DNA from: the human T2T-CHM13v2.0 reference genome, Homo sapiens
Assembly (NCBI RefSeq): GCF_009914755.1
Contig: NC_060925.1
Reading direction: 5' to 3' (one strand)
DNA: 64,000 nucleotides
In this document: positions 5,333-50,094 of the stretch, in pieces
Numbering within the stretch: the stretch's first letter is position 1
Layout: each line of letters starts with the position of its first letter
Program-made: the position numbers and the translations under genes
The notes under the pieces: model-generated
Seen by the model: the letters and a program-made list of their open reading frames with translations, nothing else
Told to the model about the DNA's origin: nothing
Database searches by the model: none

Positions 5333-5357
5333 GGCGGCGGGGGTGGTGGCCCGGGCC

Positions 5358-5449
5358 GCGTTGCGCTCCCGCCACTCCGCGCCCGCTATCCTGGCTCCGT
5401 GCTCCCACGCGCTTGTGCCTGGACGGACCCTCGCCAGTGCTCTGCGCAG
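5358..5449 (+). other. ALPL: ALPL non-coding exon 1 (bone-type leader, 1B); TSS approximate
   Basis: Ends at a strong donor, GCGCAG|GTAAGG (GT at 5450-5451). Joining it to exon 2 gives ...GCGCAG|GATTGGAAC..., matching the ALPL mRNA leader as I recall it. Confidence 0.85.
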
Positions 5450-42083: not shown

Positions 42084-43351
42084 ATAGGGCTAATAATCCC
42101 CACCCTGCCAGTATCACTAGGATGTTGTGAGGATCTGACGCAATTTGAGTTACGGGAATGTTGAGAAAGAAAAGGGCGTAATGGAGTAACGAGATTAGTT
42201 TTCCTGTTATGGTGAGGTCAGTGGCCTTTCTGGGGTCAAGAAGAGGGGACTTTCCTTGGCACCAAGAGGGTAAAAGTGTCTCCTCCTGACCTTGGGTATT
42301 TTGGACCATGGGATCTGAGGTGTACCAGGAGACAGGAAGTGTGATCAGAAAAGGCCTGGTCTAATGGTGCACAGCTGTGCATATCCAAGTGGCTTGACCT
42401 CTCTGGGCCGTTTCTGAATCTGTGAGATGGGAATCATAACCACTCTCCTGACTTCATAGGATGTTTTAGGAGAGATTGGATCTGGGTTGGGGAGACAATT
42501 TTGGAAGCAGAAAAGGCCCCTCCGTGCTGGCAACAGCTCGTCCACCTCCAGCCTGTGTGTGCTGCCTCCTGGATGACTGCTGGCTTTAGGCCAGCGCCTG
42601 GCAGGGCTTCACTAAAGCCTCCGTAGGCTGCTGCTATCTCAGTTCTGAGGTACGGGCCGTGGAGACCCCCAGATTTGGGCTTAAATCCCAACTCCACCAT
42701 TGCACCTCTGAGCCTCTGTTTCTCTGCAAATGGGGATACTAGTCCCTAGCCCAGATGGGGCCTGGTACACAGTTGGTGCTCAATAAGAGCAGTTCGTCTT
42801 CTTCTGAGCATGGGTGCATCCCTCTGGCTGGGGTAAGCACCAACTCAGATTTCTAGGCCCATAGATGGGCTGGAACAGCTGCTGCTGTTAGGGGAAAACC
42901 TACTGTGTTACTAGCCAAGGGGTTCCCTTCCATGTTTTTGCCCCACAGGGCACCTGGCACAATGTCTAGCATACAGTAGGTGCTTTGTCCACACTGGCTG
43001 GTCAGTTACCTCCAAGCTGACAGAAACTCTGTCCCGTTCCCGACTGTTTCCATAGAACCTAGCACAGAGATACTCAGCAGGTGCTCTGTAGGTGTTTGGG
43101 AGTGAGGAATGAATGAACAAAGTTGAATGAAGAAGCATCGGGCCCTCCCCCGGGGCTCAAATGGGAGAGAGGAGCTTCGTAGCCTGCTCCCCCTCCCACC
43201 CCAGCACCCCGTTTCATCCCTTCTGACTAATCCACAAAGATTAACCCAGGGATAAAGCGGGTCACGGCCACTGACCCAGGGCTTTGGAGCTAGTGTGACC
43301 GAGTGTGTGCAGGGCGTGGTGGCTGCTCCCAGGGGCCCTCTTTGCCCCAAG

Positions 43352-43474
43352 ATGGCCCTCCTGTCCCCCATCCTGGATGTGGTCCTCACGGTGGCCCTCA
43401 GCCTCCTCCTCCTGGGGCTGATCCTGGGCCTCCTTTGTTTCTTCACTTGCCGCCTGGCCAGGCCGCTCAGGTAG
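43352..43474 (+). CDS. Candidate small ORF/exon encoding a single-pass membrane microprotein (MALLSPILDVVLTVALSLLLLGLILGLLCFFTCRLARPLR*)
   Basis: AAG-ATG-G Kozak context; 36 of 40 third positions are G/C; 22-residue hydrophobic span; donor CAG|GTAGGG at 43470/43471. No expression evidence is available from sequence alone. Confidence 0.4.
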   Translation: MALLSPILDVVLTVALSLLLLGLILGLLCFFTCRLARPLR

Positions 43475-45029
43475 GGGAACTCAGCTGGCCTGACTCCCCC
43501 TGCATCCCGCCAAATTCCCCGCCCTAAGCTCGTTCAGCTTCCATTTGTTCTCGTGAGATGGAGCAAGAGGGGCACTCATTTCTCTTACTCTTCATGGTGG
43601 GGAAACCAAGGCCCGGAGAGGTTGAGCCCTGGCGTCAGCCTGGGCTTAAATGGCGCATAGTCGAAGACTAGCCAAACCCTCTGTTGGGTTTCCTAAGCTA
43701 CAAAACGGGGGCTCTTCATCCATATTGTGAGATCAGGGATGTAAACAGCATGGGGCTGAGTGGAACATGAGGGCCTAAGAAATGGTAGTGACACGTTTGT
43801 CCCATTCTTCTATCATTTGCCCCAGATCTTCTGAGACCCAGCCCAAGGCTGGCTTTTTGCCCCACTCCAGGATGCTCCCGGGCCCTCTGCCTGGGTTGCT
43901 GAATCAGTCCTCAGAGCTAAGGCCTGCCTGGCTCCTCAGCCCCCTGCACTGAACTGCCAAGTAGCTGCTCCTCTGGCGCCACAGCCTAGCCGGGGCTTCT
44001 GCACTGGCCATGCGTAATCAGGCTACGGAGGAGCCGGGAGCCTGGCAGAGAAGGGAGGGAGGGGGTGGCGATGGGGCTGACACACACCCGGAGGCCCCAT
44101 TTTAAGCTGGCAGACATTGGCAGAGGGTGGTGGGCAGCCGGGGCCCCCACAGCCCCAAACTGGGCCCCTCCGCTTCCAGGGCTGCCACAGAGCAGCCAGG
44201 AGCCTCTGCGAGGGGGAGGGGTCCTAGGGGTGGGGCCAGCAGGGAGGCTCTGGGTTCTGAAGGCTTTCCCAGGTCCCCACCCCCTCCTTGTCCTGAGCGG
44301 AGGCTATGGGAGAAGGCACCTGCCTCCAGGCCAAGCCTATCTCAATGCCTATCCCTGGGGCCAAAATTCAGAGCATCCCAGCCTGAACTGGTGGCACTTA
44401 TGGAACTGCTACCATGTGCAAGGGCTCGGGATGCAGAGATGGGTAAGATGATGGTCTTTACGTTCACAGAGCTTCAGGCTAGCAGGGAGGAGAGACAGAC
44501 CAATAACCGGAAGAATAATCATGTGGGGCTGGATGAGCCTTTCAGTGCTCCCGGGTCACTACACTTTTATTTTTCTTTATTCGCTCACCTGTTTTGGACC
44601 CTCAGTGCAGAGAGAGTGGGATACGTTATCTCACTTAGCACATGACATACCCAAATAAGCTCTCAGTTCTTGTTTTGTTTATTCATTTTTTCCTTTGTCC
44701 CTGCTCCCTGCCTCCCCACTGCCATTCCCACAGCTCACCGAAGTCCCTATGCTAATGTACTTAATATGGCCTTGGAGTTGTAAGTGTCCTTGTACGTTAC
44801 ACAGCATTCTGTCCGTGGGGGTGGTTTGCACTTACATACACTGCGTTTGATTCTTTACATTCATCACTCAGTCCTCTGCCTTTAGACCCCACCACGCTGC
44901 TGTTTGGACATCTAGTTTTAATACCACTGCCACGCAGACATTGCCTCCACCACTCCTTACTAATTCATTTCCCTAGTTGTGGACGAGACTGCCCCGGCTC
45001 CTCACCATCATAAGCCAGTGTTAAAAGGA

Positions 45030-47080
<2,051 letters not shown>

Positions 47081-47665
47081 TCCTGCACACACAGAGAAGA
47101 TAATTTTGGATGGCTCTTCCCTTCCCCCCACAACCTTCCTTAGGGCACTGGCTTTCAACTGATGTAAATATTTACTATGCCAAGCACTAGGAGGGCAGAG
47201 ACAAACAAGACAAAGTCCTCACACTTAGAAACTCCCGGTGTGGCAGCTGAGATGGCCCAGGAAAGAACTATATTACCTTCAAAAAGAGAGGTACATGCGA
47301 TGTTTGAGGTGGCATGAAGCTCAGTGGTGTTATATTGGAATGAGTGAGTGACCATCCTGGAGCCTTCCTGAAAGAGGTGACTTCATTTTTAAGTGATTTT
47401 AAATAATAGTTTAATGAATTAGTATTTCGTATTCAGTTAATAACATTTTTCTGATTTTAGGATTTGCTATAGAAATATTTGGAAACCGTAAAGTAGAACA
47501 AAAAAAAAATGTAGGAATCATCTGAAATTCCAAATTCTACCACTCACAGTTAAGTGTTGTTAGATGTTAGATGTGGGATATTGCCTTTTAATTTCCACTC
47601 TGCGCCGCTACCCCCAGCCCCTACCCCAGAGCCGTCACTTCTGGCACTGGAGCGCAGCTTGCGTG

Positions 47666-49929: not shown

Positions 49930-50033
49930 GATTGGAACATCAGTTAACATCTGACCACTGCCAGCCCACCCCCTCCCACCCACGTCGATTGCATCTCTGG
50001 GCTCCAGGGATAAAGCAGGTCTTGGGGTGCACC
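49930..50033 (+). other. ALPL: ALPL exon 2, 5'UTR part
   Basis: Polypyrimidine tract and TTCTAG acceptor (AG at 49928-49929), then 104 nt to CACC-ATG. Confidence 0.93.
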
Positions 50034-50094
50034 ATGATTTCACCATTCTTAGTACTGGCCATTGGCACCTGCCTTACTAACTCCTTAGTGCCAG
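50034..50094 (+). CDS. ALPL: ALPL exon 2 coding part: signal peptide MISPFLVLAIGTCLTNS, then LVP (61 nt, phase-1 end)
   Basis: ACCATG context; translation matches the TNAP N-terminus; donor CCAG|GTATGC. Confidence 0.98.

What the first reader, a model, noticed from the sequence alone, without database searches (positions are those of the whole stretch)
43352..43474. Hidden transmembrane microprotein ORF/exon inside ALPL intron 1
Seen in sequence: ATG at 43352 in a strong Kozak context (A at -3, G at +4) opens 40 codons, MALLSPILDVVLTVALSLLLLGLILGLLCFFTCRLARPLR*. This is below the 60-aa ORF-track cutoff. 36 of 40 wobble positions are G/C, a coding-like bias. The peptide has a short N-terminus with one Asp, a 22-residue hydrophobic helix (V10-F31) containing GxxxG (G22/G26), two juxtamembrane Cys and then Arg residues. 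The ORF ends on a donor, CAG|GTAGGG (phase 2), and lies in sequence I do not recognise as a repeat. Established knowledge: this layout (positive-inside rule, palmitoylatable Cys) is typical of signal-less single-pass small membrane proteins. Inference: an unannotated nested gene, a relic of one, or an alternative ALPL leader exon encoding a membrane microprotein.
Basis: partly seen in the sequence, partly recalled or inferred. Interest (0 to 1): 0.85.

Follow-up and report, generated by a model that had tools for sequence, protein, structure and literature searches.

The report
Conserved membrane microprotein exon in ALPL
A short stretch inside the first intron of the human alkaline phosphatase gene ALPL encodes a small membrane-spanning peptide that other mammals also carry and splice onto ALPL messages, so it looks like a real, overlooked mini-gene and not a chance reading frame.

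Summary
The 40-codon ORF at 43352-43474 (+) is there exactly as described. It ranks first of 261 ATG-ORFs of 40 or more codons in the window for both GC3 (0.90) and hydrophobicity. It is not chance. Protein searches returned 27 further predicted proteins carrying the same peptide or a divergent relative. One opens a prairie-vole ALPL gene model. A 47-aa donkey protein and a 48-aa relative continue past RPLR with IGTSVNG and IGTSANIS. Splicing the human donor at 43470 to ALPL exon 2 gives IGTSVNI-stop. So in other mammals this is an alternative 5' exon of ALPL. The ORF is an upstream cistron of 47 codons that ends 79 nt before the ALPL ATG. Selection acts on the peptide. At least 30 amino-acid changes in the membrane segment include none to a polar, charged or Pro residue (P about 1.5e-6). 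Identity to human drops from 75% to 31% just upstream of the ATG. The only indel inside the ORF is one codon, while frame-breaking indels occur just upstream. It is single-copy in the human genome. AlphaFold predicts one helix. RefSeq lists no exon here, and no indexed paper mentions it. Human expression and translation could not be tested.

The parts
43352..43470 (+). Coding part of the alternative ALPL 5' exon: ATG plus 39 and 2/3 codons of the microprotein. It comprises a short N-terminus with invariant D9 (within the 15 sequences of alignment A1), a hydrophobic helix, and the core LLCFFTCRLARPLR.
   Evidence: ORF, periodicity, rank 1 of 261. (27 further predicted proteins with the peptide or a divergent relative). 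(hydrophobicity kept). (one helix, residues 4-39, mean pLDDT 85.6).
43471..43476 (+). Splice donor GTAGGG (exon|intron = CAG|GTAGGG). The in-frame TAG at 43472-43474 ends the ORF at 40 codons if the RNA is not spliced.
   Evidence: sequence. (joining at this position to exon 2 gives the tail IGTSVNI). (P0006 and P0010 continue at this position with IGTSVNG and IGTSANIS). Unspliced database ORFs end at RPLR.
49930..49954 (+). First 25 bases of ALPL exon 2 (5' leader). They complete codon 40 and supply the last 7 codons (IGTSVNI) and the TGA stop at 49952-49954 of the predicted 47-codon upstream cistron.
   Evidence: IGTSVN occurs once in the six-frame translation of the 64-kb window, at 49931 (+), in the phase the donor predicts.
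50034..50036 (+). ALPL (TNAP) start codon, 79 nt after the upstream cistron's stop and in another frame. Its context tgcaccATGA is weaker than that of the upstream ATG.
   Evidence: Hub annotation (coding part starts at 50034)..
43201..43351 (+). Conserved non-coding sequence 5' of the ATG: a 5' UTR/promoter, or an intron end with an acceptor. It contains the inverted repeat GGGTCA-N7-TGACCC at 43259-43277 and a pyrimidine-rich run ending in AG at 43350-43351 (12 of 15 pyrimidines).
   Evidence: The upstream read-through of P0002 and P0025 matches the human sequence in blocks that lie in different frames (RVTATDP; SVCRAWW...), so the DNA is conserved but has frame-breaking indels; no ATG in 43200-43351, and the list of AG sites.

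Best explanation
43352-43470 is the coding part of a conserved alternative 5' exon of ALPL that RefSeq does not annotate in human. Spliced at 43470 to ALPL exon 2 (49930), it opens a 47-codon upstream cistron: 40 codons from this exon, then IGTSVNI and TGA at 49952-49954. The cistron ends 79 nt before the TNAP start codon and in another frame. The product is a single-pass membrane microprotein. It has about 9 N-terminal residues outside (lumenal or extracellular), one hydrophobic helix, and a basic juxtamembrane tail with an invariant Cys on the cytosolic side. Shown here: the ORF, its coding-like periodicity, its conservation at the ALPL locus, splicing to exon 2 in at least two other mammals, and peptide-level selection on the membrane segment. 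Inferred: that the human exon is transcribed and translated; the N-out/C-in topology (positive-inside rule); and post-translational membrane insertion. A further inference follows from the first AUG sitting in a strong context (A-3, G+4), with no ATG in exon 1A or in the 150 nt upstream. Messages carrying this exon would make mainly the microprotein, and TNAP only by re-initiation or leaky scanning. The exon would then also lower TNAP output from those messages.
For: (1) The ORF ranks first of 261 in the window on GC3 (0.90) and on hydrophobicity, with GC1/2/3 = 0.675/0.40/0.90. (2) Synteny: the first 40 residues of a 602-aa 'Alkaline phosphatase, tissue-nonspecific isozyme [Microtus ochrogaster]' model are this peptide (31 of 40 identical, no indel). 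The model rejoins ALPL at exon 3, window 56559 onward. (3) Three word-indexed searches and one exhaustive profile search of 1.84 billion representatives returned 27 further predicted proteins with the peptide or a divergent relative. Two more rows are the window's own ORF, and one (P0021, 1321 aa, 15 stretches) I set aside unread as a probable low-complexity match. (4) Splicing: donkey UniRef A0A9L0IWC6 (47 aa) and P0010 (48 aa, on a 2585-nt contig) continue past RPLR with IGTSVNG and IGTSANIS. The human join 43470->49930 gives IGTSVNI-stop, and IGTSVN occurs only once in six frames of the window, at 49931. P0009 differs from the donkey peptide by one residue and stops at RPLR, so it is the unspliced form. 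(5) Peptide-level selection: in columns 10-31 of 15 sequences there are at least 30 amino-acid changes (states minus one, a lower bound on any tree). None gives D, E, K, R, N, Q, H or P, whereas 36% is expected from random non-synonymous single-base changes of the human codons, so P is about 1.5e-6. (6) Identity to human is 74.8% in the ORF and 30.7% in the 12 in-frame codons just upstream, over 13 sequences. (7) The only indel inside the ORF is one codon (P0017, P0018), while frame-breaking indels lie just upstream. (8) A divergent clade (P0023, P0028-P0030) and P0022 keep the helix and the LLCFFTCRLA core (LVCFFCCRLA in P0023). Of the two members searched, P0029 and P0022, each has its best human match at this same locus. 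(9) The peptide and its DNA are single-copy in the 3.1-Gb genome. (10) AlphaFold2 on the 19-sequence alignment gives one helix, residues 4-39, mean pLDDT 85.6.
Against: No human RNA, CAGE, Ribo-seq or mass-spectrometry data could be consulted. RefSeq lists 7 human ALPL transcripts and none uses this exon (hub annotation). The database proteins are automatic ORF calls on assembled contigs, so conserved non-coding DNA can appear there as 'protein', and broken copies would be missed. Intactness across species is therefore biased upward, although the hydrophobicity test and the conservation step at the ATG are not affected. No orthologous nucleotide sequences could be obtained, so dN/dS and PhyloCSF were not computed. 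The invariant 3' block (CFFT.RLARPLR) could be conserved at the DNA level, for example for splicing. One rodent-like sequence (P0016) reads on past RPLR with a tail that aligns weakly to the human intron, so the stop and donor may be lost there. A stop in exon 2 of 12 would normally expose such an mRNA to nonsense-mediated decay. Only two species are named (donkey, vole), so the taxonomic range is otherwise unknown. Whether the exon is a first exon with its own promoter or a cassette exon is open: a plausible acceptor sits right at the ATG.
Confidence: 0.7

Rival explanations
1. It is a cis-acting regulatory uORF. The exon exists to throttle TNAP translation from a subset of ALPL mRNAs. The peptide matters only as a nascent chain (ribosome stalling) or not at all, and no stable microprotein acts in trans.
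For: The ORF lies upstream of the ALPL ATG and ends 79 nt before it, with a stronger start context than the main ORF. Within alignment A1 the last 12 residues encoded by this exon are invariant apart from the one-codon deletion of C33 in P0017 and P0018. C-terminal conservation is typical of conserved-peptide uORFs (recalled).
Against: The membrane-like segment is kept hydrophobic through at least 30 changes, which a stalling peptide does not require. The true C-terminus, encoded by exon 2, varies in sequence and length (IGTSVNI, IGTSVNG, IGTSANIS). The divergent clade has another tail. This reading does not exclude the best explanation, and both may hold.
Confidence: 0.15
2. It is functional in other mammals but silent or decaying in human. 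The exon is an ancestral ALPL leader that the human lineage no longer uses, and the intact human ORF is a not-yet-eroded relic.
For: There is no exon here in any of 7 human RefSeq ALPL transcripts (hub annotation). The human peptide has states not seen in the other 14 sequences of alignment A1: I7, V14, A15, I24. The local sequence is not a CpG island, with CpG o/e 0.24-0.35.
Against: The ATG, strong start context, frame, donor and the exon 2 continuation are all intact in human. All the human-specific substitutions are hydrophobic-for-hydrophobic or T-to-I, as expected under continued constraint. A cluster that the search lists as the window's own ORF (100% identical) stands for 566 contigs, though these are unspliced forms and say nothing about use.
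Confidence: 0.12
3. It is a conserved non-coding element (enhancer, promoter or non-coding leader exon), and its open frame and hydrophobic translation are incidental to a pyrimidine-rich sequence.
For: The DNA just upstream is also conserved, although it is clearly non-coding with frame-breaking indels. The sequence contains CCT/CTC-rich runs that by themselves give Leu codons and period 3. The database 'proteins' are automatic ORF calls.
Against: Conservation steps from 31% to 75% at the ATG. There are no frame-breaking indels in the ORF in any sequence, and one 3-nt indel. None of at least 30 changes gives a polar residue. Start and stop are kept. The divergent clade has drifted to 45-55% identity yet keeps a helix plus motif, which is how proteins evolve. 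There is no tandem repeat.
Confidence: 0.03

Closest known systems
uORF-encoded membrane microproteins on bicistronic mammalian mRNAs, e.g. SLC35A4-MP/STREMI (103 aa, inner mitochondrial membrane). I saw the abstract and passages of PMC13303939, passages of PMC13143143, and the search-listing abstract of PMC12396333.
   Same: A conserved small ORF in the 5' leader of a well-known gene's mRNA. It encodes a hydrophobic membrane peptide and ends before the main start codon.
   Different: This one is much shorter (47 codons), with one predicted helix where the STREMI paper reports two. It sits in an alternative exon and not in the constitutive leader. No sequence similarity was found, and its localisation is unknown. 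ALPL does not occur in the main text of either paper; I did not open their supplements.
Single-pass regulatory micropeptides such as phospholamban, sarcolipin, myoregulin and DWORF, and stannin (all recalled, not fetched)
   Same: The architecture is the same: under 60 aa, a very short N-terminus, one helix, and a Cys/basic juxtamembrane stretch.
   Different: There is no Pfam match at E <= 10 and no solved-structure sequence match below E 0.5. It is not a member of these families by sequence. Any partner, such as a pump or channel, is unknown.
ALPL leader exons 1A (bone) and 1B (liver), from passages of PMC8156423 and PMC4709781 and the hub annotation
   Same: It is an alternative 5' exon joined to ALPL exon 2, and it leaves the TNAP coding sequence unchanged.
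   Different: It lies at 43352-43470, which is neither 1A (5355-5449) nor the human alternative exon at 47218-47376. It carries a conserved ORF, whereas exon 1A has no ATG. I could not check whether it corresponds to the rodent exon called 1B, because the 1989-1991 papers and Brun-Heath 2011 are not held.
Conserved-peptide uORFs that stall ribosomes (recalled class)
   Same: It is an upstream ORF with a strongly conserved peptide, most of all near the C-terminal part.
   Different: The conserved feature here includes a hydrophobic helix, and the last 7-8 residues vary. Stalling was not tested.

Membership tests
Conserved protein-coding small ORF (microprotein) | Start codon, reading frame and stop kept across species, with indels only in multiples of three | tested here: met
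   All 21 non-human mammal-like sequences, including the vole model, keep the Met and the end at RPLR. The one indel is a single codon, while frame-breaking indels occur just upstream. Caveat: database ORF calls favour intact copies.
Conserved protein-coding small ORF (microprotein) | Purifying selection at the amino-acid level (dN/dS < 1, PhyloCSF > 0) | tested here: inconclusive
   Proxy tests are positive: none of at least 30 changes in the helix gives a polar, charged or Pro residue (P about 1.5e-6), and identity is 75% against 31% across the ATG. True dN/dS was not computable because no orthologous nucleotides were obtained.
Conserved protein-coding small ORF (microprotein) | Evidence of translation (Ribo-seq periodicity, peptide by mass spectrometry) | not testable with these tools
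   No such data are available here.
Upstream ORF / upstream cistron of ALPL mRNA | It lies on the same mature mRNA, 5' of the main start codon | tested here: met
   Met for two other mammals: P0006 (donkey) and P0010 carry the exon 2 leader translation after RPLR. For human it is inferred from the intact donor and an identical predicted junction. No human transcript data were seen.
Upstream ORF / upstream cistron of ALPL mRNA | It ends before the main ORF, or overlaps it out of frame | tested here: met
   The TGA at 49952-49954 is 79 nt before the ATG at 50034, and the offset is 1 mod 3.
N-terminal extension / alternative signal anchor of TNAP | In frame with the ALPL coding sequence | tested here: not met
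   There is a stop after 7 codons in exon 2 and the frame differs from ALPL's. By arithmetic on the exon coordinates (no call), skipping exon 2 is also out of phase: 119 nt gives phase 2, whereas exon 3 follows 61 coding nt, phase 1.
Human ALPL exon 1B (liver leader) | Same genomic position as the annotated alternative first exon | tested here: not met
   The annotated alternative exon is at 47218-47376 (hub table), and this exon ends at 43470. The two are about 3.7 kb apart.
Transposon-derived or repeat sequence | Multiple dispersed copies, or similarity to a repeat family | tested here: not met
   The peptide and the DNA are single-copy in the 3.1-Gb genome, and there is no copy in the window. 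Caveat: these DNA searches also found no copies of flanks that look MIR-like to me, so their power against very old repeats is low. RepeatMasker was not available.
Known small membrane protein families (Pfam; solved structures) | Significant profile match | tested here: not met
   Pfam gave 0 families at E <= 10. The best PDB sequence match has E 0.59 and is a generic membrane helix. The ESM Atlas best score is 0.81, at the level the tool reports for shuffled sequences.

The most novel reading that the evidence does not exclude
An old, so far undescribed single-pass membrane microprotein gene rides as an upstream cistron on alternative ALPL mRNAs, possibly beyond placental mammals given the divergent clade. 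It is functionally coupled to TNAP, for example by setting how much enzyme a cell makes from these messages, or by acting with the GPI-anchored enzyme at the membrane. Variants in 'intron 1' could then contribute to unexplained hypophosphatasia or to variation in serum alkaline phosphatase.
Probability: 0.2. Interest if true: 0.85.

Novelty: new member of a known kind. Interest (0 to 1): 0.68.

Why it matters
ALPL is a heavily studied disease gene (hypophosphatasia, vascular calcification). The reviews I read passages of describe its 5' end as two non-coding leader exons. A third, conserved 5' exon with a peptide under selection would add a second protein product to the locus. It would also add a translational brake on TNAP in the messages that carry it, and a stretch of 'intron 1' where variants could matter. 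Most reported microproteins are evolutionarily young (abstract of PMC13143143). One that is kept in a rodent, an equid and human, with a clear membrane-peptide signature, is among the better candidates for real function. The idea is directly testable.

Tried and rejected
- **Chance ORF:** rejected on the window-wide rank and cross-species conservation.
- **Period-3 tandem repeat:** none found.
- **Second copy or repeat in the window or genome:** none found. Sensitivity to ancient repeats is low.
- **TNAP N-terminal extension:** rejected because the frame stops in exon 2.
- **Splicing to the alternative exon at 47218:** there is no acceptor there (the context is ...aagtc|CTCACA), and the in-frame reading stops after 33 codons.
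- **Vole model residues 41-98:** they have no counterpart in the human window. I regard that part of the model as ab initio filler.
- **Structured RNA:** Rfam gave only one sub-threshold hit outside the unit (15 bits against a gathering score of 90).
- **Pfam, PDB sequences, ESM Atlas:** nothing.
- **Human paralogue of the divergent clade:** none. The best hits of P0029 and P0022 are at this same locus.
- **Profile search of the own genome:** not accepted by the tool.
- **Orthologous nucleotides for dN/dS:** a scan of prokaryote genome contigs and one of viral contigs found none.
- **Literature:** ALPL with microprotein, uORF or 'upstream open reading frame' gave nothing relevant. The peptide strings occur in no indexed paper. 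The papers on rodent exon 1B are not held. One search was a malformed query.
- **Not opened:** supplementary ORF catalogues of Ribo-seq papers, which may list this ORF.

Full report
**1. The observation**

The ORF is real and exact. The start context is cccaagATGG. GC at codon positions 1/2/3 is 0.675/0.40/0.90, and T occupies position 2 in 23 of 40 codons. The exon-like end is CAG|GTAGGG, with the exon ending at 43470 in phase 2.

Of 261 ATG-ORFs of at least 40 codons on both strands of the window, this one ranks first for GC3 (next best 0.79). It also ranks first for 19-residue hydrophobicity (2.87 against 2.61), and no other ORF combines both properties. There is no tandem repeat and no other copy in the window. 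The local DNA is GC-rich (0.63-0.66) but poor in CpG (o/e 0.24-0.35), so it is not a CpG island.

**2. Conservation at the ALPL locus**

A search of longer proteins returned a 602-aa 'Alkaline phosphatase, tissue-nonspecific isozyme [Microtus ochrogaster]' model. Its first 40 residues are this peptide (31 of 40 identical, no indel). From residue 99 it matches ALPL exon 3 in the window (56559 onward). The stretch between has no human counterpart and looks like ab initio filler.

Searches among short proteins, an exhaustive profile search of 1.84 billion representatives, and a profile-seeded search added more. In all there are 27 further predicted proteins that carry the peptide or a divergent relative. 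Two further rows are the window's own ORF. One long protein (P0021, 1321 aa, 15 stretches) I set aside unread as a probable low-complexity match.

The mammal-like sequences all keep the Met and the end at RPLR. In the 15-sequence alignment, C29, F30, F31, T32, R34, L35, A36, R37, P38, L39 and R40 are invariant.

A more divergent clade (P0023, P0028-P0030) and P0022 keep the helix and the LLCFFTCRLA core (LVCFFCCRLA in P0023) but have different ends. Of the two members I searched with, P0029 and P0022, each has its best match in the human genome at this very locus. Humans have no second copy. Only two species are named by the sources, donkey and prairie vole. I did not try to identify the others.

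**3. It is an ALPL 5' exon**

Joining the human donor at 43470 to ALPL exon 2 at 49930 completes codon 40 and adds IGTSVNI, then TGA at 49952-49954. The donkey protein (UniRef A0A9L0IWC6, 47 aa) continues past RPLR with IGTSVNG. P0010 (48 aa, from a 2585-nt contig) continues with IGTSANIS.

IGTSVN occurs exactly once in the six-frame translation of the 64-kb window, at 49931 (+), in the phase the donor predicts. P0009 differs from the donkey peptide by one residue and stops at RPLR, as an unspliced copy should.

So in at least two other mammals the exon is spliced to the ALPL exon 2 leader. The ORF ends 79 nt before the TNAP ATG (50034) and in another frame, so it is an upstream cistron and not an extension of TNAP. 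By arithmetic on the exon coordinates, skipping exon 2 would not restore the frame either.

Exon 1A has no ATG, and there is none in 43200-43351, so this AUG would be the first on such messages. The exon is distinct from the annotated human alternative exon at 47218-47376.

**4. Is the peptide itself selected?**

The database entries are automatic ORF calls on assembled contigs, so their mere existence does not prove coding, and broken copies would not appear. Three tests are not affected by that bias.

- **Hydrophobicity.** In helix columns 10-31 of 15 sequences there are at least 30 amino-acid changes, counted as states minus one per column, which is a lower bound on any tree. None gives D, E, K, R, N, Q, H or P. 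Random non-synonymous single-base changes of the human codons would give such residues 36% of the time. The probability of none in 30 is about 1.5e-6.
- **Step at the ATG.** In 13 sequences that carry in-frame read-through upstream, identity to human is 74.8% in the ORF and 30.7% in the 12 codons immediately before the Met.
- **Indels.** The upstream DNA is conserved but with frame-breaking indels. P0002 and P0025 match the human sequence in blocks that lie in different frames. Inside the ORF the only indel is one codon, in P0017 and P0018.

AlphaFold2 on the 19-sequence alignment gives a single helix, residues 4-39, with mean pLDDT 85.6. I could not obtain orthologous nucleotides. dN/dS therefore remains to be done, and the invariant 3' block could owe part of its conservation to splicing signals.

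**5. Mechanism**

Most likely (0.7), the exon provides the start and 39 2/3 codons of a 47-residue single-pass membrane microprotein. By the positive-inside rule (established knowledge), the short N-terminus, with invariant D9 in the 15-sequence alignment, faces out. The basic tail (R34, R37, R40) faces the cytosol together with the invariant C29.

With only about 16 residues after the helix, insertion must be largely post-translational (inference). The upstream AUG has a stronger context than the TNAP AUG, so messages with this exon should yield mostly the microprotein. TNAP would then come only by re-initiation or leaky scanning (inference). The exon would thus both encode a peptide and damp TNAP output.

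The rivals are a purely cis-acting uORF (0.15), an exon silent or decaying in human (0.12), and an incidental ORF in a conserved non-coding element (0.03).

Evidence against the main reading:
- None of 7 human RefSeq transcripts uses this exon.
- No human expression or translation data were available.
- Such an mRNA may be exposed to nonsense-mediated decay.
- P0016 may have lost the stop and donor.
- It is unresolved whether this is a first exon or a cassette exon. A pyrimidine-rich run ending in AG sits right at the ATG.

**6. Comparison with what is known**

The kind is known: uORF-encoded membrane microproteins such as SLC35A4-MP/STREMI. I saw the abstract and passages of PMC13303939, passages of PMC13143143, and the search-listing abstract of PMC12396333. 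Single-pass regulatory micropeptides are a second comparison, recalled and not fetched.

By sequence this peptide belongs to no described family. Pfam gave none at E <= 10. The best PDB sequence match has E 0.59. The ESM Atlas best score of 0.81 is at chance level.

The ALPL reviews I read in passages describe only leader exons 1A and 1B (PMC8156423 and PMC4709781). Searches for ALPL with microprotein, uORF or upstream open reading frame found nothing relevant. Neither MALLSPILDVV nor CFFTCRLA occurs in any indexed paper. Supplementary ORF catalogues and GENCODE were not consulted, so it may already be listed there.

**7. Verdict**

It is a new member of a known kind. Interest is 0.68: a conserved, apparently undescribed peptide-coding exon inside a major disease gene, directly testable, with human use still to be shown.

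Noticed in passing
window 43259-43277: An inverted repeat GGGTCA-N7-TGACCC lies about 75-93 nt upstream of the ATG. The read-through translation RVTATDP across it is identical in the vole-like sequence P0002, so it appears conserved. The half-sites resemble nuclear-receptor half-sites (recalled). It may be part of a promoter or enhancer for the exon.
   Followed up: partly
window 43337-43351: The pyrimidine-rich run ccctctttgcccc followed by aag sits directly before the ATG (12 of 15 pyrimidines). The residue before the Met is K in 10 of 13 read-through sequences (R, Q and E in the others). The exon might therefore be an internal cassette exon with its acceptor at the ATG, and not a first exon.
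   Followed up: partly
window 43040-43130 and 43590-43700: Both flanks look MIR-like to me by eye (recalled consensus). I could not confirm this. The genome DNA search and a sensitive in-window blastn returned only the query itself.
   Followed up: partly
P0011, P0012, P0014, P0016 (database proteins): Four rodent-like sequences start 12 codons upstream of the conserved Met (MTT[TI]SKGSL.. before MALLSP), giving a 52-codon form. The vole-like P0002 has ATI at the same place. The ORF caller may print a GTG or TTG start as M, so I cannot tell whether these are true ATGs. The extension is lineage-specific.
   Followed up: no
window 43006-43371, minus strand: A 121-codon ATG-ORF on the opposite strand overlaps the start of the finding. 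I saw nothing to suggest it is more than a chance open frame in GC-rich DNA, and I did not study it.
   Followed up: no
window 43850-44450: A GC-rich patch (0.62-0.68) lies 400-1000 nt downstream of the exon. A sub-threshold Rfam hit to a lncRNA model at 43823-44000 (15 bits against a gathering score of 90) is most likely noise.
   Followed up: no
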